Shown here: positions 1 through 29,172 of the stretch, piece by piece
Layout of the letters: the number at the start of each line of letters is the position of its first letter
Position numbering within the stretch: position 1 is the stretch's first letter
Source: Haloquadratum walsbyi C23
GTDB taxonomy: Archaea; Halobacteriota; Halobacteria; Halobacteriales; Haloferacaceae
Direction of reading: 5' to 3'
NCBI RefSeq assembly: GCF_000237865.1
Contig: NC_017459.1
Coordinates: 1,320,001 to 1,352,000 of the forward strand
Length of the DNA stretch: 32,000 bases
Position numbers and translations under genes: made by a program
The notes under the pieces: model-generated
Databases searched by the model: none
What the model was told of the DNA's origin: nothing
The model's input: only the letters and a program-made list of their open reading frames with translations

Positions 1-123
1 ATTCCCTGAATCGTCTCTGTCCTCATGAAGCCGCGTAATCATACCACTCAAGTCAGATTCAGAGTGATTGAATGTATTCTCTGGAAGAAAGTCGAAAATA
101 AACTTTGATTTTGAACGTTCCAT
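1..123 (-). CDS. 5' part (41 codons) of an unknown protein; third gene of the NTPase-helicase operon, continues beyond the window
   Basis: The ATG at 123..121 starts 2 nt after the helicase TGA (128..126). The open frame MERSKSKFIFDFLPENTFNHSESDLSGMITRLHEDRDDSGN runs to position 1. It is absent from the ORF track because it is truncated. Confidence 0.45.
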   Translation of the reverse strand, partial: MERSKSKFIFDFLPENTFNHSESDLSGMITRLHEDRDDSGN

Positions 124-125
124 CG

Positions 126-3100
126 TCATCGCCCATCATCCCCTTTGAATAACGCATCGATGAATGGTTGATTATTAAATTGCGGGGTAATTGACCCTGA
201 ATTACCGATATCCCGAAGGCTTACCATCGGCTTTTCATCACGGGGAAACTCCGGATAGTTCATTGATGGAAGATTCTGTTCCCAGTACCGCCAAAGATTA
301 TTTAATTTTGTATCTAGCTGTGAGGTGAAATATCGCGTCTCGGTCGTTTGCTCATCAACCCCGAAGGCGCTACGAAGTAATATTTTCATGTTCTGCTTTG
401 TGAAATCAGAATAATTGTTGCTAGTCATGAGCTTATACAAATGGCTTGCTTTCTGTACATTGGCACGGACTTGCTTCGTGTCCTTGGTTACAGTTTCTGA
501 TCGCCACATCGTCGGGCGATAGTGCTGTATAAGCAGTGCATTAGCGACACCGACGAATGTCCGTTCGATACCGAATTTTGCCCAGCGGTCAATTGGGACA
601 GGTTCGACTGCTCGGTCAAGATATTCATGCATTTTCTCGAAAAACCGGTATCGGTGCATATCCCGCTCTTCGAGTGGATTAAATGCATTAAATACGAACC
701 CCGTGACCCCTGATTGGCGACCAACCCGGCTGCTAGACTGGATATATTGGAACGTCTGCGCCGGTAATCCGTAGAACATCATCATATTGAACCTATTAAC
801 ATCGATTCCATGACCAATGAAGCTAGTTGACGGGACAGTATCTACCCGATTCTCAAATGGAATATCACCCTGATTCTCAAGTGTTTCAAGAAGATCCGAA
901 TCTTCTGTATCCGCAGTCAACTGTCGTTCAACTATCGAATTTTCATATCCATTCTCCATCATCTTCGGGTTCGTATGCTTCGCAATATTTTCCCGATAAC
1001 GATCCTTCTCAACCTTATTAGTAAAGTAAATTACACTTAGCTCATACAAATCAAGGAGTTCACGCTTTTTCGATTTAGTTAATGAATCAAGTCCAACTCT
1101 ATCTGCGAGTTCCTCAGAAGACAATTCACGTGCATCTCGAATAAGTTCGTGATAATTCTGAATAGTGTCTAGAATCGAATACAGATGAGATCGGTTGTCA
1201 GGCATAAACCCAACATACTCTCGCTGAATCGTATCCGTAAGGTGACCATAGAACGTTTCCCGGCGTTTCGGCCCATCGACTGGGAATCTGACTGCTTCTT
1301 TTTGGAAGAGGTTCTGCATCTGCCGCTCGTACTTGGCAATTGTGGCAGTAGATGTGAGGATTTTCGGCTCCTTTCCATGAATCTCGTCGCAAAGCGTCAG
1401 ATAAAGTGTCTCATAATGTGATGAGAACGTCCCCAGTTCCTCACTTAGCAGATGAACCTCATCGATGAGATGTAGCGTGGGAACTGGGTCATACAGCTCA
1501 TTTGGGTCTACCTCACGCAGATTTTCTGAGTCGACATCACAGTGTGCGTGCTCAGAGCACTTACCAGAGTAGCCGTATCCATGAATCGGGCATTCTGTGG
1601 TAAGATTTCCCAGTATGTTCGCGAACCGCGGTTGCATACCAGAGACAACTATCTTATCCAGTGAACCTAGCAGTACGGACGGGACATATCGGTAAATATC
1701 ACGATCAACGACATAGAGCGGCAGTTGACCAATACAGCTATCGCCAGTACAGTGATGAAAGACACTATTCTTCTCTTTATCAAATTCCACCCTAACGTCG
1801 CTCTGGCAAAGCGGGCATGTTTCTACAACCTGGCACTCCTCCTCTAATCGCTGTTGACTTTCTGAGAAGGCCTCTCGGTACCGATCTCGACTTGTTCCAA
1901 TAGCGTTTGGTGTATCGTGACTGCCAACGTAGAATCCTAACGAGAACGGCTCGCCACGACTATCCAATCCGAGGTTATTGTTTGCCTGACGTATCTCCTC
2001 AGCGTAGAGAAGACTTTCAAGAAACCGATCTTGCTGTTGGCGACTCAAGAGTCGTAATGGGAATCGTATCCAGGCAGTGACGCCCTGTTCTTTCCCACGT
2101 AACCGATCGTAGAATAAATTAAACAGTATTAGCCCCAGATATGCCTCAGTTTTGCCACCCCCCGTTGGGAACCATAGCACACCAGCAGCATCGTCATGTG
2201 GTGACTCAAATTCTGGATATTCCCGTCGTACAATACTCGAGAGATTACTCACAATATAAACAACCTGGAACAGTCGCCAACCAGGGAAATCGTATTGACG
2301 GTCGTTGACCTCGTTCATTAGACGGAAAGCGCGAAGCGCCTGACTATCCTGTTTTAGTATGTCAATTCCCTGTTGAAACCGCTCAATTTCCGTTGTAAAA
2401 TCTTCAGCTGCTGCGTCGTATTGCTCGAGTTCTGCCTGAGAAAGTCCCAGTTCGCGGCGTATCTCCTCTCGTCGAGATCCCTGCCATGAATTAAGATACT
2501 CAATCATCCCTGACTCAATATCTTCGAGTGTTTCAATTGTCTTTCCACTCGCCAACTGGTCAAAATTGGTTTCATATGCCGTGTTGAAAACAAACTCGTA
2601 GACTGGACAACGTGGCACTGCTGTTGTCTCAATTCGTCGATTCCCATGGTCATCTATCTCACTCGTCGTTCCGCAGTTGTGTCCCTTACTCCACACCCGT
2701 TGGTCATAGCGATAATCTTCCGGTACCAAATCAAAAGTATATGGCTCAAATTGACCGACTGCGGTGATCTTTGGGTTAAAAATAAATCGTTCAAATATCC
2801 CATCATACTCATCCGAACTCTGACCATCGGGCGAATAGTTAGCGAGTGCAAGCGCAAACTCATCACCACTTCTGGTGACCTCAGCTTGAAGATCCCACTT
2901 AAGATCCGCTTCGGATAGTTTTGTTCGCTGCTCAACGCGTGCTGTGTATTCTGATTCAGAGAGTGGTGTTGTTGATGTCTTATTTGACGTTATCGGCTGC
3001 TCAGATAATGAATTATTCACCCCAGGAAAATCGTCCAATGAGTCTGAAACTGTCGTTTTAAGCTTAGACTGAAGCATCTCGGTAATGCGGCTTGCCTCCT

Positions 3101-3638
3101 GCTCATGCGCCGTTGGATCAAACTCTGTGTCGACGCTGATGCCAACACGACGAAAGAATCGTTTATCTAAATTATACAATGAATCAAAGTTGATATTTTC
3201 TTCTGAGACATCAGACGGGTCGATACTCCCATCCATTCGATTGGCTGCCTCCACCTGTGCTGCTTGCAATGATTTTTCGAATAGGTGTAGATATTCCTCG
3301 TACGTAGGAACTGCAGGGTAATAGACATCAAAAGAAAGTGATATATCAACCGTATCGCCGGTTGAAACTGGAGTGAATTCTAGTGAAATACTACTGGGTC
3401 TGGTCTTTGCTTCAAATTCCTCGTCCTCAAACAGATCATGTTCTGGTGCGAGGTTCGAGATATGATATTGATCGTGAGGGAAGTTTCCTGAGCAGTAGGA
3501 CTGATGCTGTCCTCGTGAGCGTTTGAGCGTTTCCGTTGTCAGGTGTGACCCAATCTTATGTGCTGGAGTTAGGTTTATGTCATTTTCGTCACTTGCTGAC
3601 TGCTGGACATCTACCTGTCGCGTCTCTGAATCACTCAT
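126..3638 (-). CDS. Large SF2 (DEAD/DEAH-like) helicase, ~1170 aa, with a ~490-aa N-terminal region of unknown function and a Cys/His-rich insertion in the motor core
   Basis: Motif I LWFPTGGGKTEAYLG lies at 2139..2171 and motif II LIDEVHLL (DEVH) at 1452..1463. C-terminal lobe motifs are STSFIGHGIDV and QYIQSSSRVGRQ. The track ORF starts at TTG 3662. I prefer ATG 3638, which overlaps the upstream stop as ATGAGTGA. Confidence 0.9.
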   Translation of the reverse strand: MSDSETRQVDVQQSASDENDINLTPAHKIGSHLTTETLKRSRGQHQSYCSGNFPHDQYHISNLAPEHDLFEDEEFEAKTRPSSISLEFTPVSTGDTVDISLSFDVYYPAVPTYEEYLHLFEKSLQAAQVEAANRMDGSIDPSDVSEENINFDSLYNLDKRFFRRVGISVDTEFDPTAHEQEASRITEMLQSKLKTTVSDSLDDFPGVNNSLSEQPITSNKTSTTPLSESEYTARVEQRTKLSEADLKWDLQAEVTRSGDEFALALANYSPDGQSSDEYDGIFERFIFNPKITAVGQFEPYTFDLVPEDYRYDQRVWSKGHNCGTTSEIDDHGNRRIETTAVPRCPVYEFVFNTAYETNFDQLASGKTIETLEDIESGMIEYLNSWQGSRREEIRRELGLSQAELEQYDAAAEDFTTEIERFQQGIDILKQDSQALRAFRLMNEVNDRQYDFPGWRLFQVVYIVSNLSSIVRREYPEFESPHDDAAGVLWFPTGGGKTEAYLGLILFNLFYDRLRGKEQGVTAWIRFPLRLLSRQQQDRFLESLLYAEEIRQANNNLGLDSRGEPFSLGFYVGSHDTPNAIGTSRDRYREAFSESQQRLEEECQVVETCPLCQSDVRVEFDKEKNSVFHHCTGDSCIGQLPLYVVDRDIYRYVPSVLLGSLDKIVVSGMQPRFANILGNLTTECPIHGYGYSGKCSEHAHCDVDSENLREVDPNELYDPVPTLHLIDEVHLLSEELGTFSSHYETLYLTLCDEIHGKEPKILTSTATIAKYERQMQNLFQKEAVRFPVDGPKRRETFYGHLTDTIQREYVGFMPDNRSHLYSILDTIQNYHELIRDARELSSEELADRVGLDSLTKSKKRELLDLYELSVIYFTNKVEKDRYRENIAKHTNPKMMENGYENSIVERQLTADTEDSDLLETLENQGDIPFENRVDTVPSTSFIGHGIDVNRFNMMMFYGLPAQTFQYIQSSSRVGRQSGVTGFVFNAFNPLEERDMHRYRFFEKMHEYLDRAVEPVPIDRWAKFGIERTFVGVANALLIQHYRPTMWRSETVTKDTKQVRANVQKASHLYKLMTSNNYSDFTKQNMKILLRSAFGVDEQTTETRYFTSQLDTKLNNLWRYWEQNLPSMNYPEFPRDEKPMVSLRDIGNSGSITPQFNNQPFIDALFKGDDGR

Positions 3639-5799
3639 TAGAAAGTTTCTCCATTGCTTCAATTGACACCTGAGTTATATCCTCCTCTACACCGTCAATG
3701 CTATCAAGATCATCAGATGTCGACTTATGCTCGCTGCCAACACACATTTGCGCCTCGACAGCTCGGCGGGCTCGCTGCCCAATCTTTTGATGTATCCGTC
3801 GGATTTGTTTCATTGATTGGACGATTGCGGGGGCACGTGGTTTCAATTCTGGCTGGAGTACTTCAAGCACACGAGATACATCTTTGTCATCGCTCGGACC
3901 GATTGTGCGACCATTCGTCCAGAGTCGAACAGTGACTTCTGATGTCACATCCGAGCCGGCTGCCCGAATCATTCTGAGTGCGTCGGAGTATGATGTATCG
4001 CCATCCGTGATATTTGACTGGAGAACGTCACGCCATTGTTGTACTGTCCTTCCACACTTCCGTATCTTATCTTGCTCTTTGGCTGAATCAAGATACATCT
4101 CATAAATATCATCGGTTGCTGTGCTGAGAAGAAGAATATCATCCCCAACATCGAGATCCTCAACCCTAACTCGCGCAATCTCCCCTGAATCGTTGTATAC
4201 TGGGAACTTTGAGTGCAATCCAACAGTCCGCACGTCCCCATTGGATAGTTCAACTCTCACCTTGCTACCAGTCACCTGGCTTTTTGAACTTCCTCGTGAC
4301 CTACCATTCTGTTTATTCCGCTGATACTTTCGACGAGTGTCAGTATTACCCTCTCTGGAACTCGATCCTTGAGACTTTGTCTCACCAATAACCTGTGTCT
4401 CAAAGGTAGCGTTGGTATTGTCGAGTCCAGATTTAATTTGACCCAACACAGTCGAGCCCCAAGTTACGAATTGATATGTCGTGATGTCTGAACAAAGAGG
4501 AAATTGGTACGGATGCGAGTTATACTCGAACGGTCGGGCATATACTGTTTCTCCGCTTGTTGCGGGCTCAATGTCATCTAGAGTTTGAATTGATGCATAG
4601 TTCTCAGGCATTGTCCCGTTCTCCATGTTGATGGCATGAAGTAACGCCTGGTGTTCGTGATCATCCTTGACCACTATTGTACGATTAATACCTTCTAATT
4701 CTGCTTTTTCAATAGCTTCGAACAGTGCCTGTTGGACTGGATGTTCTTTGTTCAATATTCCTTGCAGGTGATTGATTCCTTGAACGTAATTAATAAGAAG
4801 TTCAGCTGTCTGCCCATTTGCTCGTTGTGCAATACCCCGGAGTCCTTGCACCAGGTCTTTTACTGTAGATTGATAGAAATCTCCAGTAACAGCGTCTGCC
4901 CAGTGCTCAGGTTTAACAGGAAGCTTGGTGAGAAGATTATAAACCCATCCGACTTCCATCGGGGCAAGTCCCCGCTCTTGAAGTTTGTTTTTCATCTCTC
5001 TAAGTTTGTTAATGGCCTTTCCATTGTCCGGATATCCAAAAGAAATGCAACTAACTGACAAATCAGAGGTGGCAAGTAGCCGTTCATATCCGGCAGCCAT
5101 AGTCGTTGCTTTAGCTGTTGACCCTGGACTCGCGGTGGTGAGTAGCTCACTCGTGATTGCGAAGTTATTAGATTGGTCTTGAATAGGGTCGAACACGCCG
5201 CGGTTAGTGTCTGTGTAGAATATAATCGGTGGCGTATCCTCGTCAAGTAAGTCTATGATTGTTTCTAGTCGACGACTTGGCTCGCGCCATTCGGCTTTTC
5301 GCAAATCAATAAAAATCGCCCCGATGCGGTCGTTGGACCATGACTGATCAAATTCAAATCCATGTTTTGCCGTATAAAAGTCATCATCGTGGACTTGACT
5401 TAATTGTTGAATACACTGCCGGTCAAGTAAGCGTGGGTTTCGACCGATTCCATCTTCCCGCAGTTCATCGAAGCGCGTCACATACCCTTGACTCAGTGCA
5501 GGAAGAGCCATCAATGACTTCCCGGCACCAACGACTCCATCGGTTGGAAAACGGGTATCCTGTGAGCGAAGATACGCTAAACAAATTGCAAGGGGGACGT
5601 CATTGGTTGGAAGCGGATCGTATATATATGACGACTCTGTCTGCTCGATTGCCTCCATTACCGAATTAATGGCTGCCATTTCTGTATCCGCAAAATAGAG
5701 CTTACTGTCATCCTCGATGAATCCACTTCCAAACCATCGCTCAAAGATTGGACGGTTTCGAGCCTTACTGGCCGAGTCTCCCAACCCACCCGTAGACAT
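3631..5799 (-). CDS. 722-aa protein with an N-terminal P-loop NTPase domain, a basic low-complexity linker and an unknown C-terminal domain
   Basis: The Walker A motif GVVGAGKS (GxxxxGKS) lies at 5515..5538, with a Walker-B-like GAIFIDL about 70 aa later. The ATG is at 5799..5797. The composition is acidic. The gene end overlaps the helicase start by 8 nt. Confidence 0.85.
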   Translation of the reverse strand: MSTGGLGDSASKARNRPIFERWFGSGFIEDDSKLYFADTEMAAINSVMEAIEQTESSYIYDPLPTNDVPLAICLAYLRSQDTRFPTDGVVGAGKSLMALPALSQGYVTRFDELREDGIGRNPRLLDRQCIQQLSQVHDDDFYTAKHGFEFDQSWSNDRIGAIFIDLRKAEWREPSRRLETIIDLLDEDTPPIIFYTDTNRGVFDPIQDQSNNFAITSELLTTASPGSTAKATTMAAGYERLLATSDLSVSCISFGYPDNGKAINKLREMKNKLQERGLAPMEVGWVYNLLTKLPVKPEHWADAVTGDFYQSTVKDLVQGLRGIAQRANGQTAELLINYVQGINHLQGILNKEHPVQQALFEAIEKAELEGINRTIVVKDDHEHQALLHAINMENGTMPENYASIQTLDDIEPATSGETVYARPFEYNSHPYQFPLCSDITTYQFVTWGSTVLGQIKSGLDNTNATFETQVIGETKSQGSSSREGNTDTRRKYQRNKQNGRSRGSSKSQVTGSKVRVELSNGDVRTVGLHSKFPVYNDSGEIARVRVEDLDVGDDILLLSTATDDIYEMYLDSAKEQDKIRKCGRTVQQWRDVLQSNITDGDTSYSDALRMIRAAGSDVTSEVTVRLWTNGRTIGPSDDKDVSRVLEVLQPELKPRAPAIVQSMKQIRRIHQKIGQRARRAVEAQMCVGSEHKSTSDDLDSIDGVEEDITQVSIEAMEKLSNE

Positions 5800-5823
5800 A
5801 ATTATATTTACATTGTATTATCG

Positions 5824-5836
5824 GATAATTAAAACT
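5824..5836 (-). promoter_or_regulatory. Possible TATA-box-like element for a leaderless transcript of the NTPase-helicase operon
   Basis: On the minus strand GTTTTAATTAT sits about 28-36 nt upstream of the ATG at 5799, in a strongly AT-rich intergenic region. The call rests on position and composition only. Confidence 0.25.
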
Positions 5837-6526
5837 TTTCACGAGAGTCATTCTCATACACACTGTCCTCAAACTATCGAATATTGAATATATGTAAGTA
5901 ATTGACCTGCTAGAAGGTCTGAGAGCCATTCTGAGTGAAATATCTCACCAGGCGTGTATTGACGCGTCACGCTATCCGCTATATCATCAATGTTCATTCG
6001 CTCTCACTCACTCAATTCTATATACATGTATGAGCAAATAAATGTTCGCGTACTTATATGAGATGCTGGAGATGTTATTACCGTCGTCAGCCACGATGAT
6101 TGCGGCGCGCGAGTTCACGGATCACCGCGGTTGTTGCTGGTTCGCCTCTCATCTCCAATTGAGAGATTCTACATCTGACCCAGTGGATTGTAACATTATA
6201 TAACCAGATATACACGGCAACAACGATCCCAAACCGCAGGTGAAAGATATAATTACGCAGTGATTCTCTGAAAGCAGCATATTCGGCGTTGGGCGAGCGA
6301 TATTGATCCAAACCATGCGATTGCATCCAATCCTGCGAGTGATTTTCTACTAACCATACTTCGGTGGAACCCGCTTAATTCAATACAACGGTGGAACAGA
6401 TTCGATTATCCTTCCGGATCCGTCCCCTCATAAATCACTATCGGTATAGTAGTTTTACCCAAGATCTATGCTCAACTACTTCAACCGGGCAGAGAACCAG
6501 ATGAGTCGTTGTTTTTGAAGAACAGA

Positions 6527-7054
6527 CTACCCGAGACGTACCTCATAATGATGATCGTTGATTACACTGAGTCCGGTAAGACATGGCTGTGTCTCCCCAA
6601 TTGGAATATCTGAACATTCATAGATGCTATATCGGATCATATCATCATCACCATCGACCGTGTGTGCCCGAAGATACACAGGCACGAGTTGATCGACGGT
6701 GAGCGATAGTGACATTTCGGCTGCAAGCGTCGGATAGCCTATCCTATGCTTTGCTAATTTCCGTCCACGTCCACGTTTCGCCTCAATAACCAGCAGAATC
6801 CGCTTGCCCCCTCGACGAGTCATAATAAGCCCATCAATCTCGATTTGCCCACTATTATGATGGACAACTGTCGGGTGATCGGGATGCGGTTCAAATTGAA
6901 AATCAAATGTGGATGCGACTGTCGTCGGGGCAGTGCCAATCTGAGCGGTGTCGAGACACTCGAAGTCATGGAGGAGCTCACCAGCAAAAGCGAACTCACC
7001 GAGAGCGACGTCCAGGAGATTGCGGATAAAATCAACGAGAGTGGACGAACTCAC
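6527..7054 (-). CDS. PD-(D/E)xK (restriction-endonuclease-fold) nuclease-like protein; start uncertain
   Basis: The motif EIDGLIMTRRGGKRILLVIEAKRGRG fits D-x16-E-x-K, similar to NucS or Mrr-type cores. The track ORF (ATG 7198) would run antisense through the PIN gene 5' end. The only other in-frame start upstream of the motif is GTG at 7054. Confidence 0.5.
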   Translation of the reverse strand: MSSSTLVDFIRNLLDVALGEFAFAGELLHDFECLDTAQIGTAPTTVASTFDFQFEPHPDHPTVVHHNSGQIEIDGLIMTRRGGKRILLVIEAKRGRGRKLAKHRIGYPTLAAEMSLSLTVDQLVPVYLRAHTVDGDDDMIRYSIYECSDIPIGETQPCLTGLSVINDHHYEVRLG

Positions 7055-7075
7055 GTTGATGAGGAATCGGCGTAG
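6845..7075 (+). CDS. Possible short or degenerate antitoxin partner of the PIN protein; start uncertain (internal ATG at 6968)
   Basis: It ends 9 nt before the PIN ATG. The acidic C-terminal part MEELTSKSELTESDVQEIADKINESGRTHVDEESA looks protein-like. The N-terminal 40 aa are Cys/Arg-rich and overlap the minus-strand nuclease-like ORF. Confidence 0.3.
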   Translation: MPTIMMDNCRVIGMRFKLKIKCGCDCRRGSANLSGVETLEVMEELTSKSELTESDVQEIADKINESGRTHVDEESA

Positions 7076-7084
7076 ATTCGACGG

Positions 7085-7474
7085 ATGAAGTTGGTCATCG
7101 ACGCTAATGTCGTCATCTCTGCACTCATCGCTGATTCGAAAACGCGGGAGCTCATCGTCACGCTCGACCCCGAGCTTTTGACACCCGCGTTTGTCCACGA
7201 CGAAGTAGAGAACTACGAGGACCTAATCGTCGACAAATCCGGGATGAAACCGGTGCGAGTGGCACGGTTCATCGACCTTCTGTTCCAATACATCGACGTT
7301 GTCACCGCCAGCGAGTTCTATCCGGCTATCGAGAGCGCAGACGAAGCAATCGGTGATACCGATCCGGACGATACATTGTATCTGGCGTGTGCGATAGCCT
7401 GCGATGCGGCAATCTGGAGTGACGACTCCGACTTCTCCCTTCAAAAACGGAATCCAAATCAAGCGCTCTGTTGA
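7085..7474 (+). CDS. PIN-domain (VapC-like) ribonuclease toxin
   Basis: Motifs are MKLVIDANVVISAL (first Asp), HDEVENY, DPDDTLYLACA and IWSDDSDF (last acidic residue). The last ~12 aa may be frameshifted, because an alternative frame reads FKNGIQIKRSVEILQN and ends at 7490. Confidence 0.85.
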   Translation: MKLVIDANVVISALIADSKTRELIVTLDPELLTPAFVHDEVENYEDLIVDKSGMKPVRVARFIDLLFQYIDVVTASEFYPAIESADEAIGDTDPDDTLYLACAIACDAAIWSDDSDFSLQKRNPNQALC

Positions 7475-22471: not shown

Positions 22472-22592
22472 GAGAGGAATTGAAGTGATGGCTCTGTTAA
22501 AATCCCAAATCGGTGATATATTCCCGGAGACATGGTGAATGCAGAGTAGATCGATAGCAGAAATTAAGCTTCGAGGCGCGTCAGGATATGAT

Positions 22593-22994
22593 ATGGTAAA
22601 GTCGACTGTCCGATTCCCCCAGGAAGTTCTGGACAAAGTTGAACAAATGGTCGAGGAAGGGACGTGCTCGAACAAATCGGAATTCCAGCGGTTTGCTGTC
22701 GAGTACGTACTCTCGAAGGCAACGGATCACGACCCAGATATAGTGGATTTTGACGAAATTTGGACAGATATATTTGCAGAACAGACAGAAGGAAATATTC
22801 CGACCGCTGAACCGGCTTCCGCTGGAGATGATACGTTCATCCAGGTTGCGACACGAGTTCGGCAGTTTGGCAGGCGCGAGCAAATTCAGACTGCTGAAGA
22901 GTACATCGATACTCACTATCCTGCTTCTGACCCTCGAAGCATACTCCTTGATGATATTCTTGCTCCGTATCGAAATCAACCCCCTGATGAGTAA
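22593..22994 (+). CDS. Ribbon-helix-helix (CopG/MetJ-type) DNA-binding protein with an acidic C-terminal extension
   Basis: MVKSTVRFPQEVLDKVEQMVEEGTCSNKSEFQRFAVEYVL shows the classic RHH beta-strand and two-helix pattern. Confidence 0.7.
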   Translation: MVKSTVRFPQEVLDKVEQMVEEGTCSNKSEFQRFAVEYVLSKATDHDPDIVDFDEIWTDIFAEQTEGNIPTAEPASAGDDTFIQVATRVRQFGRREQIQTAEEYIDTHYPASDPRSILLDDILAPYRNQPPDE

Positions 22995-23732
22995 TCCAGT
23001 GAATTGAATCTGAACCCAGACCCAGACCCGGCTGCGATATGTCTCCTCTCTGTTCCGAGTGAGTTGATCCACTCGGTTGCTGGAAATCTGTCAGCTGTCC
23101 GTGCAAGACATGCGCCCTCTATTCGGCACGCTGTTTCTGTTAGATGTGATGGACTTCGAAAGAGCCGGCAATCCAGCTTTGCTTGACCGTCTCCCGCTCA
23201 GACGACACGGACACGACATTGACCGGACACAGTACGCGACTCGATAGGAGATTTACGCTCCCGGTCGATGTCTGAATCGACATCTACGTTTGAGTCGACA
23301 TCGGCATCATAATCGATATCACCGAAAGACGCGTGTCAGTGTCGGTTTTGCTGTCTGTGCTGCATGCACCTGAACGAACTCGACTGTCCCTTCCGGTATC
23401 AGATGAGCCTTAGAGACTGTAGGTACAAGTGTGGGTGTATCTGTCATGCATTTGGGGACGGAGGACCCCAATCGACGATTTCTGACGTCACGATGATATG
23501 TGTCGGATACGCATATGGATGGTCTGCTCTGTCAGCAAACAGCATCAGACGTCGGTCTATACCGTTGAATTGTACGCTGGAGACGACAACATCAATATCG
23601 CAGGCGACGGCACGGAACGACTCACGCCCGATGGACATCTATGGCTGTAAACGCATGAAGTTAGATAGAATCGAGAAAGGTCATCACATCGGACGGATTG
23701 TCGCCTCCATCATTTCGACATTCTGGTATATA

Positions 23733-23789
23733 CTCAGCTTTGCACGTTGAATCGGAAGCGTGACGTACTGAGTAGCAGGAACAGATGAT
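23733..23789. repeat. 57-nt intergenic repeat, copy X
   Basis: CTCAGCTTTGCACGTTGAATCGGAAGCGTGACGTACTGAGTAGCAGGAACAGATGAT matches 24776..24832 at 47 of 57 positions by my count. Confidence 0.75.
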
Positions 23790-23857
23790 CCCGATTACAG
23801 ACTTCTCCGAGACTACCATGCGAAGCTGAGTATTCGTAAGTACTACCCATACAGAAT

Positions 23858-24766
23858 ATGAGTATACCACTGTCATTGATGGATCCTCTCACTGCGACTA
23901 TTGTAGTAGTCTCACTGATGCTACTCATTCTGCTGGCTTTCGGATCTCCGATTATATACACCGGGTGGAAACAGCGACAGCAGTATCACCAGTTGTCTGC
24001 AATACACACTAGTCTTGACGATGCTATCCCAGGGGAGGCTGTTGCTGTCTAAGGAACTGTGAGTAGCCAGTCACGGACTATTGACTCCCCGTACCGCTCA
24101 CAGCGTTGTGCTCTCGCGCTATGGGATACAGCGAGATTGAGTCGTGGTCAGGGAACGCAGTGGTTCCTGGAAGCCTCAGGCGTGATGGCAGATGAACTGC
24201 TGATTACTCTCGATACTGAACACGTGCCGGTCACAGGTCAACTACGCCAAAGAAGAGTACAGACCACAGCTCAGACGCTGAGCTCGGCTCTTGGAGTTGA
24301 TGTGAATTCCACGCTTGCGTTTATCGACACCGAACTCTCTCAGTCGGAGTTCGAGAAACAGTTCACACCGACAGAGGACCTCACAGAGACATATCGGGCT
24401 CACAACCGCGATATCGGGTTCGACAGACCAACACGAGACTCCTCCAACATGTTGGTGAGGCTGCTCGCAGAGCAACTCACTCCTCACAACACGGTTCGAT
24501 ATAGGGAGTTGACGTTTCAGGGTGGTGATGAGATAACGATCATCGGAGAGAAGACAGACGACGGTATTTCAGTTGTGGAAACCGGGGGCACTCACCCGAT
24601 TATCTCCTCGGAGTCGCTCTCGAATCGTCTCAGCAGATACCGACGAGAGTACGTCCTCCGATTGTATGGGTACCCGGCGTTCTGTCTCCTATTCTCGGCT
24701 CTGATCGCATACCCAATTGGAGGCGTCCCAAATGCCAATAATGTTCAATTCACGCTTTACATCTAA
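23858..24766 (+). pseudogene. Membrane protein (N- and C-terminal TM helices; possibly GIDE-domain-like) split by a single in-frame TAA
   Basis: ORFs 23858..24052 and 24059..24766 share one frame and are separated only by TAA (24050..24052) plus two codons. The junction reads ...DDAIPGEAVAV*GTVSSQSRTIDSPYRSQRCALALWD.... The second part has no ATG, only a GTG. Confidence 0.55.
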
Positions 24767-24775
24767 CCACAGTAT

Positions 24776-24832
24776 CTCAGCTTTGCACGTTGAACTAGAA
24801 GCATGACGTAGGCGGTAGCAAGAACGGATGAT
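24776..24832. repeat. 57-nt intergenic repeat, copy Y
   Basis: See copy X. The orientation is the same. Confidence 0.75.
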
Positions 24833-24980
24833 GTCGATCATGGACTTTTTACAGTGTGCGCGTGTACAACAGATTCGAATCGCTATGTGTGACAGACAGT
24901 GACAATAAGCCCCAAATATCGACAGGTCGTATAAGTAATTCCCGGGTTTCCACCACCGAAGCCCGTTGTTTTGTGGAATT

Positions 24981-25415
24981 ATGTTCGAATTTGAATCTGG
25001 ACCTAACCCCGATCTTGGAGCTGAGTCTGAATCCAATACTGAAGTCAACACCGAGATCAAGCCACGTCTTCAGCGCGCTCTTGAGGAACCACTTTCGGTC
25101 GTGTCGACTGAGGGAACTCCCGTCGAGAGTGACGCGTGGTTCGTCTCAGTTGTTTCACACAGTGGCGAATCATACACTGTCGACGTCCGTGACGGTCGCT
25201 GCAACTGTCCTGATGCACGGTATCATCTCGGTGCGGATCAGCGGTGTAAACATCAGATACGTGCCGAAATCGCGCTTGGACGGATGCCGGTGCCACCTTA
25301 CGCTGCGGAGACCGCTGATATTGACCGACTCCTCGGGGAACATACTGATGCGAATCTGCGATTCCTCGTGAACGACGGAGGATGTTATCGACAGGACATA
25401 CACCTCCGAACCTGA
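24981..25415 (+). CDS. SWIM-type zinc-finger protein
   Basis: YTVDVRDGRCNCPDARYHLGADQRCKHQIRAEIALG fits the CxCx(n)CxH signature. The N-terminus from ATG 24981 is acidic (MFEFESGPNPDLGAESES). Confidence 0.75.
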   Translation: MFEFESGPNPDLGAESESNTEVNTEIKPRLQRALEEPLSVVSTEGTPVESDAWFVSVVSHSGESYTVDVRDGRCNCPDARYHLGADQRCKHQIRAEIALGRMPVPPYAAETADIDRLLGEHTDANLRFLVNDGGCYRQDIHLRT

Positions 25416-25794
25416 CGAGGTGAAAAGACGCCAGGACTAGTCTCACTCTCGAATCCGAACACGGGGTCTACGTTCCAGCTGTTCGTTTCGACGAGGCAAA
25501 GCACCAGGTCGAAACTGCTGAGTCTGTATTATAGAGTCGGCGCTTCCCGTGACAGACGGTTATCAGGGGTCGGGGCGCATCGGGAGTTCGATGGTCGCAT
25601 TATGTAACTAATCCTTTCTGTATACGACGATATGTTACATAAGGCAATATCAACAATAAATATCGATTTACGCCAACTTAATAAACTCCGCTGGTCTGTT
25701 GAACTCCTCTCGTATTTATACCGTTCCGTGTAAATCTGCCATTAGAGAGGACTGCGAACGGTCGATTCAATCCTCCGATCGTATCATCACGTTG

Positions 25795-26067
25795 CTAGAC
25801 CCAGTGAAGGATATAAAGAAGGTAGATGCTAGCGCTCGTAACGAGTATACCAACCGCAATCAAAGCCACAGCAGCCAAGCCAGTTGTGTAGAATCCCATT
25901 TGAACCGCTTGGAGACCAACAAGAACGGTGAATGCTGCTAGTATCGTCCAAAAGACAGTCGAGAGAACTGACCGCCCCACTCTTGACATTTCCTCTCTCA
26001 CAGCACGTCGAATTTCAACTTCAGTGAGGTTGTCGGAGTTGCCCATATCGAACATTATGTTGACCAT
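25795..26067 (-). CDS. Small two-TM membrane protein
   Basis: This 90-aa ORF has a charged N-terminus (EVEIRRAVREEMSR) followed by two hydrophobic helices. Confidence 0.5.
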   Translation of the reverse strand: MVNIMFDMGNSDNLTEVEIRRAVREEMSRVGRSVLSTVFWTILAAFTVLVGLQAVQMGFYTTGLAAVALIAVGILVTSASIYLLYILHWV

Positions 26068-26121
26068 CCATTATATAACTGGCCTGGACAGCATGAGAAG
26101 TGTACTATCGGTATCTAACGC

Positions 26122-26301
26122 TCAGAGTGTCTTGTCGATGGTATCTGTGAGACAACCAACAGCAAGTTCATAGAGCTGTATCCACCGGTAGCGTGAGCGG
26201 ACGAATACGCCATACTTACGCTTGAGTTGGGAGTTTACTGTCTCTTCCTGACTCCGTTGAAAGCGTGTCAGAGAAAGGTTTCCGCAGGGATTGAATAGTA
26301 G
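26122..26301 (-). pseudogene. C-terminal remnant (~59 codons) of an IS4/IS5-type DDE transposase
   Basis: The minus strand reads LFNPCGNLSLTRFQRSQEETVNSQLKRKYGVFVRSRYRWIQLYELAVGCLTDTIDKTL*. It contains the R-x3-E-x6-K part of the YREK signature. A stop lies immediately upstream, and no N-terminal part is present. Confidence 0.6.
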
Positions 26302-26425
26302 TCAAATATAGATATCACACGTGTGCTAATAAGTGACGACTATATGAAATCAATCAGAAGACCAGTGAAACATGCAGAGGTTACATATGGTAAATCGTCA
26401 AGATCCGAGTCCTTCGGTAATGCCC

Positions 26426-26752
26426 TCACGGACCTCGAAGGATTCGGAAGAGGAGCGTAACCGGACGAACCATTGTGTGTCCAAGGTCGGCGATCACAAA
26501 GTCACGTTCGTGACACCGATCATAGAGGTATAATGCAACCGGGAGAAATCCAAAACAGATCACGAAACTAGCGAAGACAACGATTTCCGGCAGTTCAATG
26601 CCAATAACGGACACTCCAAGTACAAACATAGTCATCACTGCGGTGCCGATCCCGACTGCATACGAGATCCGACCTACTTCGAATATCAGATATTTTTTAG
26701 AGAGACCGAAGTACGTCTCGTCCATTTGGTTCGGGTCTGTCCCGTTGCTCAT
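26426..26752 (-). CDS. Small membrane protein, unknown function
   Basis: This 108-aa ORF has an ATG start and two or three hydrophobic segments. Confidence 0.5.
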   Translation of the reverse strand: MSNGTDPNQMDETYFGLSKKYLIFEVGRISYAVGIGTAVMTMFVLGVSVIGIELPEIVVFASFVICFGFLPVALYLYDRCHERDFVIADLGHTMVRPVTLLFRILRGP

Positions 26753-27341
26753 TACTTATCAGATGTGACTGTGGTGTAATATACGTCACCGACGGTCTCA
26801 CACTGTGAAACCTGACCTGTCTCTCTGTACCCCGTGCTACGGTTGCGCTGTCCATCTTGCATACCGGCACAATCCAGTATTGGGATTCTCTTCGTATGGA
26901 GTGACGAGTATGGACAGCGTCGAATCCATCCGAATCGCTGCCTGCTGACTGGGTCATCTGGACTGTGACTGCACTGGCACTCATCGCAACTGGAAATATC
27001 GTTGATATACTCCTCAACAATGGAACGCTTGCGCTAGTTAGCTATGTGGGTATATGAATTAATTATTCACCGTCGAGTGTTCAAATTCCGAGCACGGTAT
27101 TAATGACCATTTTTTGATTCCCGTTCAGGAAAATGTTCTCTCGATTATCCTTGTTGTAGACTGGAGCATGATCGATCGAACATAGCCTGCCATCTGATAT
27201 AATGATTGAATCAATCGGAGAATGATCATCTTCATCCTTGCGACGGTGGGAGATAACTCTATTCTCAGTCGTCGGTCAGTTTGAATCATAAGTAACATAT
27301 TTTAATTGATATTTAATCACATTCATATCAGACGTGTATGT

Positions 27342-27632
27342 ATGAGTGAGAATATCGGGGTCGAAGTATCAAATCGTCATCACAGTGAAGAAGAGAGTGA
27401 GGATGACACTGAAGCACAAGATGATGAACACGGGGCAATAAAATCCCAGCAGTTCAGCTTTGAAAAGAATGAGACAGTCGCTGATCTTATTATGAAGGCA
27501 TTAATCGATGATGGGACGGTCACACCCGATGAGTTGCCAATCTCGTCTGCTCAAAAGGCGTTACGGATATACGCTTATCAACATTCCAACGTCACATTTG
27601 ATTCGAGGGAATCGACACTCCGCCGGAGATGA
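27342..27632 (+). CDS. Small highly acidic protein, unknown function
   Basis: An internal ATG at 27342 gives MSENIGVEVSNRHHSEEESEDDTEAQDDEHG.... The flanks are AT-rich. Confidence 0.5.
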   Translation: MSENIGVEVSNRHHSEEESEDDTEAQDDEHGAIKSQQFSFEKNETVADLIMKALIDDGTVTPDELPISSAQKALRIYAYQHSNVTFDSRESTLRRR

Positions 27633-28681: not shown

Positions 28682-29172
28682 TGGAGCAGGTGATTCACTA
28701 TGGGATCCCTCAGAAAGTGAGACATCCGGTTGATGAGATCATGAACTTTAGTGGTCTTCTGCCGGATGGCACGTTGATCGATGTTGTTCCTATGACCAAG
28801 TCAGCTGATCAGCGGTTGATTCAACAAGGGAGTTCTGGTTTTGGGAACATTGATAACGGGACTGCGGTGGCTGATAACAGTGAGGAGGGGCTGCTGGTGT
28901 CGCACAAACCGGATTGCGGCACCGCACATCTATTGAAGATCACTGTGCAAGATTATGTCTCGTTGAATCGCGATGAGATTAATTCGCGGACTGCAGAGGA
29001 ATTGCTGATGAAGTACTCTCAGTTGAGTTGCTTGAATTGGTTCTCAGGTTTCAATCAGGGCAAGTGTGCCCTGCTGCAAGTTCTGACGCACAATTTGGAT
29101 GAGAATCTGTCCGCGGACATTGATGCCCCGGACAGCATGTCGATAATCTCGTTCATACGGAGTGACATATAA
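28678..29172 (+). CDS. Unknown 164-aa protein; second gene of the Mre11/Rad50-like operon
   Basis: It is coupled at both ends: ATGA with the upstream gene and TAATG (29170..29174) with the downstream gene. No motif was recognised. Confidence 0.6.
   Translation: MMEQVIHYGIPQKVRHPVDEIMNFSGLLPDGTLIDVVPMTKSADQRLIQQGSSGFGNIDNGTAVADNSEEGLLVSHKPDCGTAHLLKITVQDYVSLNRDEINSRTAEELLMKYSQLSCLNWFSGFNQGKCALLQVLTHNLDENLSADIDAPDSMSIISFIRSDI

What the first reader, a model, noticed from the sequence alone, without database searches (positions are those of the whole stretch)
1..5836. Translationally coupled P-loop NTPase, giant helicase and a third gene: a defence-like module I cannot assign to a named system
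Three consecutive minus-strand genes are tightly coupled.
- The first is a 722-aa protein with a canonical Walker A motif (GVVGAGKS, 5515..5538) and an hhhhD Walker B candidate.
- Its end overlaps, as ATGAGTGA, the start of a ~1170-aa SF2 helicase. That helicase has motif I PTGGGKTEAY, motif II DEVH and motif VI-like QSSSRVGRQ.
- The first ~490 aa of the helicase carry no motif I recognise.
- Two nt after the helicase stop, a third gene starts and leaves the window.

The operon sits in a region full of toxin-antitoxin modules, MITEs and pseudogenes. A big NTPase plus a very large helicase plus further genes recalls multi-gene defence systems such as DISARM (DrmA helicase), Shango (ATPase plus helicase) and Dnd/Pbe-type restriction modules. 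That comparison is one of gene architecture only, not a sequence match. No methyltransferase or obvious nuclease is visible in the part I can see.
Basis: partly seen in the sequence, partly recalled or inferred. Interest (0 to 1): 0.75.

Follow-up and report, generated by a model that had tools for sequence, protein, structure and literature searches.

The report
Reduced DISARM antiviral operon, haloarchaeal
The three coupled genes are the DrmE, DrmA and DrmB core of the known antiviral system DISARM, in a haloarchaeal lineage that has lost the system's usual nuclease and cytosine methylase, so the module is identifiable and only moderately unusual.

Summary
Window 3631-5799(-) encodes a 722-aa protein. 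It overlaps by 8 nt (ATGAGTGA) a 1170-aa SF2 helicase at 126-3638(-). A third gene starts 2 nt after the helicase stop, at 123(-), and leaves the window.

These genes belong to a named system. The 722-aa protein is DrmE (Pfam DrmE_N 7e-84, DrmE_C 5e-66). The helicase is DrmA (PADLOC 4e-127; solved DrmA 7S9V_A 7e-53; Foldseek 1e-23 over the full length). The third gene, read in full on a 98.8%-identical contig (L087), is a divergent DrmB.

This is the class 2 DISARM core, the three genes whose deletion abolishes defence in Bacillus.

The lineage is unusual in what it lacks. In 20 related loci (12 lineages), DrmC (PLD nuclease) and DrmMII (C5 methylase) are absent. In 42 more distant loci, DrmC is present in 36 and the C5 methylase in 19. 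The neighbours vary instead:
- PF01555 N4/N6 methylases.
- A helicase/PD-(D/E)XK/UvrD-like helicase module.
- BREX.
- In this strain, a convergent PLD-SNF2 fusion next to a gene whose partial product weakly resembles a methylase.

DrmE's Walker A motif is not conserved among its orthologues, so DrmE is probably an inactive SF2-like scaffold.

Verdict: a new variant of a known system, of moderate interest.

The parts
3631..5799 (-). drmE (722 aa): the class 2 DISARM accessory protein, with DrmE_N (residues 34-235) and DrmE_C (residues 510-686) domains
   Evidence: Pfam DrmE_N 7.1e-84 and DrmE_C 5.4e-66. NCBIfam DrmE_fam scores 118.6 bits against a cut-off of 80. PADLOC DrmE 6.5e-12. pN/pS about 0.2.
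5515..5538 (-). Walker-A-like GVVGAGKS in DrmE (residues 88-95), present in this strain but not conserved in the family
   Evidence: Translation verified. In orthologues K is replaced by E/R/H/D/Q and S by P; the motif is absent from more distant DrmE proteins.
3631..3638 (-). 8-nt drmE/drmA overlap ATGAGTGA (drmA start codon plus drmE stop codon), suggesting translational coupling
   Evidence: Relatives show 4-11 nt overlaps at the same junction.
126..3638 (-). drmA (1170 aa): the DISARM SF2 (YprA-like) helicase, without a fused DUF1998 domain
   Evidence: PADLOC DrmA PDLC02576 4.1e-127. PDB 7S9V_A DrmA 7.2e-53. The AF2 model matches 7S9V_A/7S9W_A at E 1e-23 over about 1300 columns, next hit E 0.04. 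NCBIfam DISARM_DrmAS scores 357 bits, below its equivalog cut-off of 950.
2139..2168 (-). DrmA helicase motif I (Walker A), PTGGGKTEAY
   Evidence: invariant in 24 homologues.
1452..1463 (-). DrmA helicase motif II, DEVH
   Evidence: D726, E727 and H729 invariant, V728 nearly invariant.
714..740 (-). DrmA helicase motif VI, QSSSRVGRQ
   Evidence: Q967, S969, R971, V972, G973 and R974 invariant.
1..123 (-). 5' end of drmB (first 41 codons). The full 608-aa gene is seen on the near-identical contig L087
   Evidence: The N-terminal 41 aa are identical to P0122. L087 is 98.8% identical to window 1..6647. PADLOC DrmB 1.5e-30. A clade profile matches the DUF1998 region of 7S9V_B DrmB at 1.8e-12. Pfam gives no DUF1998 hit.

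Best explanation
The region encodes drmE-drmA-drmB, the core of a class 2-type DISARM anti-virus/anti-plasmid system. It belongs to a haloarchaeal lineage in which this trio is the only conserved unit.

**Mechanism, inferred from the Serratia DrmAB structures and the Bacillus class 2 genetics:**
- DrmA is a DExH SF2 translocase.
- DrmA pairs 1:1 with DrmB, the zinc-rich OB-CON-DUF1998 'canopy' that in other YprA-like helicases is fused to the helicase.
- The complex is auto-inhibited until it loads on single-stranded or 5'-overhang DNA of an incoming replicon.
- ATP-driven translocation then blocks the invader's replication.
- DrmE is genetically essential in class 2. Here it looks like an SF2/RecA-like protein with a decayed ATP site, so it most likely acts as a non-catalytic adaptor or regulator of DrmAB.

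**What this clade lacks:** the dedicated PLD nuclease DrmC and the C5 methylase DrmMII.

**What follows from that (inference only):** self/non-self discrimination and DNA destruction either rest on DNA structure alone, or are borrowed from interchangeable neighbours. Candidate neighbours are:
- PF01555 methylases.
- A helicase/PD-(D/E)XK/UvrD-like helicase module.
- BREX.
- In this strain, a convergent PLD-SNF2 protein next to a methylase-like gene.

**Shown:** gene identities, operon architecture, purifying selection, and the clade-wide absence of DrmC and DrmMII.
**Inferred:** complex formation, DNA sensing, the role of DrmE, and any use of neighbouring genes.
For: **Identity of the three genes**
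- DrmE.
- DrmA.
- DrmB.
- The split of helicase and DUF1998 into two genes is described as a DISARM hallmark.

**Architecture and maintenance**
- Coupled junctions are present here and in relatives.
- pN/pS is 0.18-0.23.

**Context**
- Relatives lie on haloarchaeal plasmids or in plasmid-like regions, among other defence genes.
- Those genes include RM, BREX, a Mokosh-like protein, PifA and CARF-PIN.

**Clade contrast**

| Feature | Close clade (20 loci) | Distant relatives (42 loci) |
|---|---|---|
| DrmC | 0 | 36 |
| C5 methylase | 0 | 19 |

- A canonical class 2 operon exists in Haloferax volcanii pHV1.

**Literature**
- Deleting drmA, drmB or drmE abolishes class 2 defence.
- DrmC is non-essential and often missing, and DrmAB may recruit other nucleases.
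- Class 1 DISARM still protects without its methylases and without autoimmunity.

**DrmE fold and motifs**
- All top Foldseek hits of the DrmE model are SF2 helicases.
- The catalytic motifs are not conserved.
Against: - No experiment exists for this clade.
- The DrmA and DrmB scores are below NCBIfam's equivalog or subfamily cut-offs. Pfam DUF1998 is not detected in DrmB.
- The DrmE model is poor (pLDDT 56, TM about 0.16), so the SF2-like fold is only suggestive.
- In Bacillus class 2 DISARM, methylation marks self. A trio without a dedicated methylase could be toxic or inert.
- Nearly every clade locus with long flanks has some DNA methylase within about 12 kb. 'Methylase-independent' is therefore not established.
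- Only 41 codons of drmB lie in the window. The remainder is inferred from a 98.8%-identical metagenome contig.
Confidence: 0.8

Rival explanations
1. In this strain the trio is one half of a composite, class 1/class 2 hybrid DISARM. The convergent genes just beyond window position 1 would supply the missing functions. They are a large gene with a methylase-like C-terminus followed by a 1208-aa PLD-SNF2 protein, that is, DrmMI-like plus a DrmC/DrmD-like fusion.
For: - L087 shows drmB followed, 100 nt on, by a convergent 1208-aa protein. It carries PLDc_2 (25.3 bits), SNF2-rel_dom and Helicase_C domains.
- That protein's best PADLOC hit is DrmD (8.8e-63). BrxHI, PLD_Helicase, HmaA and PbeA score close behind.
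- The gene upstream of it weakly matches the C-terminus of the HmaB adenine methylase (4.9e-6).
- Class 1 DISARM and ARMADA both use a BrxHII-like SNF2 helicase with a PglX-like methylase.
- An Asgard DISARM carrying both drmE and drmD has been reported.
Against: - The pair is absent from every other clade locus. phmmer finds only one weak SNF2 hit, in the more distant locus L104.
- The orientation is convergent, so the pair is not co-transcribed with the trio.
- The PLD hit is just under the Pfam cut-off, and the methylase hit is weak and rests on a partial gene.
- Defence islands routinely juxtapose unrelated systems.
- The pair could equally be an Hma-like or a PLD-helicase system.
Confidence: 0.15
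2. In this clade the trio works with a recurrent partner module in place of DrmC. The module is a ~707-aa helicase-like protein, a ~320-aa PD-(D/E)XK (Cas4-like) nuclease and a ~1170-aa UvrD-like helicase. PF01555 N4/N6 methylases would replace DrmMII. The window's strain would then be a derivative that lost or swapped these partners.
For: - The module flanks the trio in 10 of 20 clade loci (6 lineages), in four different arrangements. It appears in 1 of 42 distant loci.
- Its parts match PDDEXK_1, UvrD-helicase and GajB-like families.
- PF01555 methylases are the most frequent Pfam family among 103 neighbouring ORFs, with 14 hits.
- One such methylase lies 168 nt after drmB in L091, and another about 520 nt after drmB in Salinigranum halophilum.
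Against: - The module is absent from the window (26 kb upstream of drmE) and from L087 (4.7 kb downstream of drmB), and also from L004 and L099.
- The loci may share ancestry as related plasmids, so co-occurrence may be synteny rather than function.
- The methylases often sit next to Mrr-like or MvaI/BcnI-family nucleases, which suggests independent RM systems.
- The HMMs used for the contrast were built from clade members, so they are biased against finding divergent copies elsewhere.
Confidence: 0.2
3. The trio is a decaying, non-functional remnant of a class 2 DISARM that lost its nuclease and methylase.
For: - DrmC and DrmMII are absent.
- The DrmE ATP-binding motifs are degenerate across the family.
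Against: - All three ORFs are intact and coupled in 12 lineages spanning 54-99% DrmA identity.
- pN/pS is about 0.2 between near-identical strains.
- The DrmA catalytic motifs and the DrmB zinc cysteines are invariant.
- The clusters of the window's proteins hold 50-80 member sequences in public data.
Confidence: 0.05
4. It is a housekeeping YprA/MrfA-type DNA-repair helicase operon, not an immune system.
For: - YprA-family helicases include repair enzymes such as MrfA.
- An Mre11/Rad50-like pair lies at the far end of the window.
Against: - The helicase and DUF1998 are split, as in DISARM, not fused as in MrfA.
- Specific DrmE domains are present.
- The distribution is patchy. The first single-protein scan of one genome per species found no close relative.
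- The DrmE family has only 215 representative clusters among 1.84 billion proteins.
- Relatives sit on plasmids or in defence islands.
Confidence: 0.02

Closest known systems
Class 2 DISARM (drmE-drmA-drmB-drmC-drmMII; Bacillus paralicheniformis, Ofir et al. 2018). A haloarchaeal example is Haloferax volcanii DS2 pHV1
   Same: - The gene order drmE-drmA-drmB is the same.
- DrmA is a DExH helicase and DrmB is a zinc-rich DUF1998 protein encoded separately.
- Both DrmE_N and DrmE_C domains are present.
- These are the three genes whose deletion abolishes class 2 defence.
   Different: - There is no DrmC PLD gene after drmB and no C5 cytosine methylase nearby. This holds here and in all 20 clade loci.
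- DrmB is too divergent for Pfam DUF1998.
- DrmA and DrmB score below the NCBIfam cut-offs.
- PADLOC's type II definition needs all five genes.
Serratia sp. SCBI class 1 DISARM DrmAB complex (PDB 7S9V/7S9W)
   Same: - DrmA is homologous by sequence (7e-53) and over the full length by predicted fold (E 1e-23).
- The DrmB C-terminal four-cysteine DUF1998 region aligns (1.8e-12).
- The likely shared mechanism is ssDNA/5'-overhang loading and ATP-dependent action.
   Different: - Class 1 DISARM carries DrmD (SNF2) and DrmMI instead of DrmE.
- Identity to Serratia DrmA is only 18-19% over the structural alignment.
- A trigger-loop equivalent was not examined here.
ARMADA / other YprA-family defence systems (Bell et al. 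2025, bioRxiv 10.1101/2025.09.15.676423)
   Same: - They belong to the same helicase superfamily branch.
- That study notes 'many uncharacterized DISARM-like classes'.
- The strain's neighbouring SNF2 and methylase-like pair recalls ARMADA's BrxHII-like/PglX-like pair.
   Different: - ARMADA helicases cluster with Druantia, and the helicase and DUF1998 are normally fused.
- Here they are split as in DISARM, and DrmE is present.
- DrmE is not mentioned in that paper.
Hma (helicase-methylase-ATPase) or PLD-helicase candidate systems. This applies only to the neighbouring genes beyond window position 1
   Same: The 1208-aa neighbour matches HmaA (6e-54) and PLD_Helicase (1.7e-54). The next gene weakly matches HmaB.
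   Different: - DrmD and BrxHI score slightly better.
- No HmaC ATPase is seen, because the contig ends.
- These genes are not part of the three genes in the finding.

Membership tests
DISARM class 2 | DrmA: a large SF2 helicase of the YprA-like branch that lacks a fused DUF1998 | tested here: met
   PADLOC DrmA 4.1e-127. PDB DrmA 7S9V_A 7.2e-53. Foldseek 1.2e-23 over the full length. NCBIfam equivalog cut-off not reached, at 357 bits against 950.
DISARM class 2 | DrmB: a DUF1998/zinc-cluster protein encoded immediately downstream of drmA | tested here: met
   The gene starts 2 nt after the drmA stop. The full protein comes from the 98.8%-identical L087. PADLOC DrmB 1.5e-30. Profile against 7S9V_B 1.8e-12, including the four-cysteine motif. 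Pfam DUF1998 is not detected, and NCBIfam DrmB_fam scores below its cut-off on relatives.
DISARM class 2 | DrmE encoded upstream of drmA | tested here: met
   Pfam DrmE_N 7.1e-84 and DrmE_C 5.4e-66. NCBIfam DrmE_fam 118.6 bits, above the cut-off of 80.
DISARM class 2 | DrmC: a PLD-family nuclease in the operon | tested here: not met
   - A six-frame search with a DrmC HMM finds nothing in the window, in L087 or in the clade loci. The HMM was built from 33 related loci and validated by Pfam PLDc_2.
- A different PLD-like domain is fused to the convergent SNF2 gene in L087.
- The literature says DrmC is non-essential and often missing.
DISARM class 2 | DrmMII: a C5 cytosine DNA methyltransferase (PF00145) in the locus | tested here: not met
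   A C5-MTase HMM (Pfam-validated) finds none in the 32-kb window, in L087 or in 20 clade loci. It finds one in 19 of 42 distant loci. The rest of the genome cannot be seen.
DISARM class 2 | Protects against viruses or plasmids | not testable with these tools
   This needs expression and challenge in a haloarchaeon.
   - GVVGAGKS is present here. In close orthologues K is replaced by E, R, H, D or Q, and the motif is absent in distant ones.
- D165 is conserved, but no adjacent glutamate follows it.
- A 'DE' after the next strand occurs in others but not here.
- The fold is nevertheless probably SF2/RecA-like (low-confidence model).
ARMADA | [quoted passage not shown] | tested here: inconclusive
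   The helicase is of the split DISARM type and comes with DrmE. A convergent pair of an SNF2 protein and a weakly methylase-like gene exists in L087 only. No ARMADA models were available.
YprA/MrfA repair helicases | A single polypeptide with fused OB-CON-DUF1998 and a housekeeping context | tested here: not met
   The genes are split, and relatives sit on plasmids or in defence islands.

The most novel reading that the evidence does not exclude
DrmE-DrmA-DrmB is a self-contained 'sensor/motor' cassette that haloarchaea plug into interchangeable modification and nuclease partners. The partners would be PF01555 N4/N6 methylases, a helicase/PD-(D/E)XK/UvrD-like helicase module, BREX, or a PLD-SNF2 fusion. 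Alternatively, the cassette defends with no methylation mark at all. Either way, the clade would be a natural experiment separating DISARM's invader-DNA recognition from its restriction-modification-like accessories.
Probability: 0.3. Interest if true: 0.6.

Novelty: new variant of a known kind. Interest (0 to 1): 0.4.

Why it matters
**Open questions about DISARM**
- How does it kill invading DNA, given that DrmC is dispensable?
- How far does it depend on methylation for self-recognition?
- What does DrmE do?

**Why this clade is useful**
- Only drmE, drmA and drmB are kept together, under purifying selection and across at least 12 lineages.
- It therefore offers a minimal natural system for those questions.
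- It also points to concrete candidate partners: PF01555 methylases, a helicase/PD-(D/E)XK/UvrD-like helicase module, and a PLD-SNF2 fusion.

**Practical consequences**
- Rule-based annotators that require five genes would miss these loci, so DISARM-like immunity in haloarchaea is probably under-counted.
- For the scan itself, the finding is largely explained. It is a member of a named system, not a new kind of system.

Tried and rejected
**Exact-sequence look-ups.** Look-ups of the window's DrmE and DrmA (both candidate starts) found nothing. The source genome is not in the indexed collection. The context was recovered through 99%-identical cluster representatives instead.

**Single-protein scans.** Scans of genome contigs and metagenome contigs with DrmA found nothing. 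The alignment-based genome scan was swamped by distant bacterial DrmA and returned only one haloarchaeal locus, L011. Those 80 loci were not used further.

**Megablast of window 1-6000 against plasmids.** No match.

**Rejected: 'the clade has no methylase at all'.** The Pfam census and HMM searches showed PF01555 methylases in many neighbourhoods. The claim was narrowed to loss of DrmMII and DrmC.

**Rejected: a conserved small gene upstream of drmE.** The 42-aa ORF here and the 73-aa ORF in L002 are unrelated.

**DrmE structure.**
- Only 9 sequences could be used, and the model is poor (pLDDT 56). It supports no more than 'SF2-like'.
- A profile search of the PDB with DrmE gave only noise.

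**tRNA genes as island borders.** None in the window or in L087.

**Shango and Dnd/Pbe.** No PADLOC hits for the three genes. Only the N-terminus of the neighbouring protein resembles PbeA.
Full report
**1. Observation**

The ORF list confirms two minus-strand genes, a 722-aa ORF at 3631..5799 and a large ORF at 126..3662.
- From its ATG at 3638 the large ORF encodes 1170 aa.
- The two genes overlap in the octamer ATGAGTGA at 3638..3631.
- The helicase stop TGA lies at 128..126.
- A third ORF starts with ATG at 123..121 and leaves the window after 41 codons.

The quoted motifs translate exactly at these positions:

| Motif | Coordinates |
|---|---|
| GVVGAGKS | 5515..5538 |
| PTGGGKTEAY | 2139..2168 |
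| DEVH | 1452..1463 |
| QSSSRVGRQ | 714..740 |

Two metagenome contigs are 98.7-98.8% identical to this stretch. Against them, drmE and drmA show pN/pS of 0.18-0.23. These are real genes under purifying selection.

**2. Identity of the proteins**

*The 722-aa protein is DrmE.*
- It carries both Pfam DrmE domains: DrmE_N at residues 34-235 (7.1e-84) and DrmE_C at residues 510-686 (5.4e-66).
- It passes NCBIfam's DrmE_fam cut-off, at 118.6 bits against 80.

*The helicase is DrmA.*
- It matches PADLOC DrmA models, the best at 4.1e-127 over residues 296-1044.
- It matches the solved Serratia DrmA (7S9V_A, 7.2e-53).
- An AlphaFold2 model was built from 24 homologues (pLDDT 64.5).
  - It finds 7S9V_A and 7S9W_A at E about 1e-23 over roughly 1300 aligned columns.
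  - The next hit is at E 0.04.

*The third gene is DrmB.*
- It had to be read elsewhere. P0122 (608 aa) has an N-terminus identical to the window's 41 codons.
- P0122 lies on contig L087, which matches window 1..6647 at 98.8% and extends 6.4 kb further.
- It matches PADLOC DrmB at 1.5e-30.
- A clade profile aligns with the DUF1998 region of solved DrmB, four-cysteine motif included (1.8e-12).
- It is divergent, however. Pfam finds no DUF1998, and NCBIfam DrmB_fam stays below its cut-off.

The operon is therefore drmE-drmA-drmB, the front part of a class 2 DISARM system.

**3. What is missing, and whether that is a window artefact**

Canonical class 2 DISARM continues with drmC (PLD nuclease) and drmMII (C5 methylase). 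Haloferax volcanii pHV1 shows this full arrangement.

In this strain:
- drmB is followed after 100 nt by a convergent gene.
- The 26 kb on the other side of drmE, within the window, hold no methylase or PLD.

To test whether this is general, I collected loci in several ways:
- Look-ups of homologues.
- Annotated plasmids.
- A metagenome scan with a DrmB alignment.

Genes were called and clustered in the sandbox. The gene right after drmB in distant relatives is a PLD protein, and a recurrent ~370-aa neighbour is a PF00145 C5 methylase. HMMs of these two families were then run on six-frame translations:

| Set | Definition | Loci | Total DNA | DrmC | C5 methylase |
|---|---|---|---|---|---|
| Close clade | DrmB at least 52% identical; 12 lineages at 90% DrmA identity including Salinigranum | 20 | 372 kb | 0 | 0 |
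| Distant relatives | more distant DrmB | 42 | 548 kb | 36 | 19 |

The trio is the only conserved unit in the window's clade. It keeps 4-11 nt overlaps or 0-2 nt gaps at both junctions.

**4. What surrounds the trio instead**

I first thought the clade had no methylase at all, and that is wrong. A Pfam census of 103 neighbouring ORFs gave these top families:
- PF01555 N6_N4_Mtase, 14 ORFs.
- PDDEXK_1, 7 ORFs.
- UvrD-type helicase domains.
- Mrr_cat and MvaI_BcnI.

*Methylases close to drmB.*
- A PF01555-type methylase lies 168 nt after drmB in L091.
- Another lies about 520 nt after drmB in Salinigranum halophilum, the closest cultured relative at 78% DrmA identity. Its locus looks plasmid-borne.

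*A recurrent three-gene module.*
- It consists of a ~707-aa helicase-like protein, a ~320-aa Cas4-like PD-(D/E)XK nuclease and a ~1170-aa UvrD/GajB-like helicase.
- It adjoins the trio in 10 of 20 clade loci (6 lineages), against 1 of 42 distant loci.
- It occurs in four arrangements: convergent downstream, co-directional downstream, co-directional upstream and divergent upstream.

*Other neighbours.* BREX, a Mokosh-like MkoA, a PifA-like KAP NTPase and a CARF-PIN protein.

*In the window's own strain.*
- The neighbour is a 1208-aa protein with a PLD-like N-terminus (25.3 bits, just under the Pfam cut-off) and an SNF2 helicase core.
- Its best PADLOC hit is DrmD. BrxHI, PLD_Helicase, HmaA and PbeA score close behind.
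- It is preceded by a gene whose partial C-terminus weakly resembles the HmaB adenine methylase.
- This pair is found next to the trio in no other locus.

*Caveats.*
- The loci may be related plasmids, so co-occurrence may reflect synteny.
- The methylase HMMs were built from clade members.
- Many of the methylases sit next to their own nucleases.
- Functional partnership is therefore a hypothesis, not a result.

**5. DrmE is probably not an active NTPase**

- The Walker-A-like motif is real in this strain.
  - In close orthologues the lysine is E, R, H, D or Q, and the serine can be P.
  - In DrmE proteins at 22-30% identity the motif is absent.
- The hhhhD aspartate (D165, in FVDLRKxEW) is conserved across the family, but no catalytic glutamate follows it.
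- A 'DE' after the next strand is present in many relatives but reads 'DT' here.
- No member examined combines both features.
- The DrmE model is poor (pLDDT 56, pTM 0.34). Even so, its top Foldseek hits are all SF2 helicases.
  - These include RIG-I, MDA5, Dicer-2, SNF2, UvsW and XPB.
  - E-values run from 1e-6 to 1e-3, with low TM-scores.
- I read DrmE as an SF2/RecA-like protein with a decayed ATP site. This is an inference.
- The family is small. It has 215 representative clusters among 1.84 billion proteins, only about 20 are similar over the full length, and the rest share only DrmE_C.

**6. Likely mechanism**

From the Serratia work:
- DrmA and DrmB form a 1:1 complex.
- A trigger loop in DrmA auto-inhibits it.
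- The complex loads on ssDNA or 5' overhangs.
- ATP hydrolysis is needed for defence.
- DrmC is dispensable and does not co-purify. The authors proposed that DISARM may 'mix and match' nucleases from the host.

From the genetics:
- In class 2, deleting drmA, drmB or drmE abolishes protection.
- In class 1, DrmABC protects without the methylases, and cells lacking them show no autoimmunity.

The present trio is exactly the essential class 2 set. The most economical reading has three parts:
- DrmAB senses and translocates on invader DNA.
- DrmE acts as a non-catalytic partner.
- Methylation marking and DNA degradation are either unnecessary or supplied by variable neighbours.

**7. Comparison and novelty**

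- The components are known, and NCBI already labels the relatives' DrmE.
- A 2025 survey of YprA-family helicases notes 'many uncharacterized DISARM-like classes' and names the split DrmA/DrmB as the DISARM hallmark. It does not discuss DrmE.
- I found no paper describing a clade-wide drmEAB-only architecture. The searchable library is incomplete, and the original DISARM paper is not held.
- PADLOC's type II rule needs five genes, so these loci would not be called complete.
- I file this as a new variant of a known kind, with moderate interest.

**8. Source**

- G+C is 44-55% for most of the window.
- A 91% match to Haloquadratum walsbyi plasmid PL47 covers part of the window. This suggests a Haloquadratum-like haloarchaeon.
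- The Mre11/Rad50-like pair at the right end suggests a chromosomal location.
- Both points are inferences.

Noticed in passing
L087:8451-13048 (-), i.e. 1.8-6.4 kb beyond window position 1: A 1208-aa PLD-like + SNF2 helicase fusion lies convergent to drmB. Its PADLOC hits DrmD, BrxHI, PLD_Helicase, HmaA and PbeA all score similarly. It is preceded by a partial gene that weakly resembles the C-terminus of the HmaB adenine methylase. The pair could be an Hma-like, DISARM class 1-like or ARMADA-like accessory pair, or a separate system.
   Followed up: partly
L085:24106-30660 (-); also L086:5850-12483, L100:12255-18738, L091:1-4056, L096:12796-19279: A three-gene module sits next to the drmEAB trio in 6 lineages, in four different arrangements. 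It comprises a ~707-aa helicase-like protein, a ~320-aa Cas4-like PD-(D/E)XK nuclease and a ~1170-aa UvrD/GajB-like helicase. It is almost absent from loci of distant DISARM relatives. It may be a partner of the trio or an uncharacterised AddAB-like defence module.
   Followed up: partly
L091:12079-17383, L097:9990-12799, L101:6218-10281, L147:18042-19673: PF01555 N4/N6 DNA methylases, sometimes several, lie just downstream of drmB in several lineages. They are often accompanied by an Mrr_cat protein. In Salinigranum halophilum the methylase is preceded by a small HTH gene resembling an RM controller.
   Followed up: partly
L146 (Haloferax volcanii DS2 pHV1, record 34493-46760): The model haloarchaeon carries an apparently complete class 2 DISARM. 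Its genes are a C5 methylase, a 726-aa hypothetical protein in the DrmE position, a helicase-related protein, a DUF1998 protein, a PLD protein and an HNH endonuclease. This makes it a convenient experimental comparator and a confounder for heterologous tests.
   Followed up: no
window 600-2100 (-), DrmA residues 602-694: An invariant Cys/His cluster (C602, C608, C611, H628, C630, C635, C683, H686, C694) is inserted between helicase motifs I and II of DrmA. It is presumably a zinc-binding insertion in RecA1. Part of it aligns with Serratia DrmA.
   Followed up: no
window 6527-7474: A PIN_2-domain ORF (7085-7474, +, 2e-37) overlaps the start of a DUF6997 ORF (6527-7198, -).
   Followed up: no
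window 29172-32000 (+): A Mre11-like metallophosphoesterase (459 aa) is followed by a Rad50/SbcC-like ATPase ORF (GENGAGKST) that runs off the right end. GC skew here is strongly positive (+0.2 to +0.3).
   Followed up: no
window 22490-27405: Four pieces within this span are about 91% identical to hypothetical-protein genes of Haloquadratum walsbyi DSM 16790 plasmid PL47. Other short stretches match Haloarcula and Halorubrum plasmids at 85-92%. This points to a mosaic of mobile DNA and hints at the source organism.
   Followed up: no
L004:15671-23429: In one relative, a type 1-like BREX cluster (BrxA, BrxC/PglY, BrxB and a PglX-like protein) starts 320 nt after drmB on the same strand. L101 also has a PglX-like gene nearby.
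   Followed up: no
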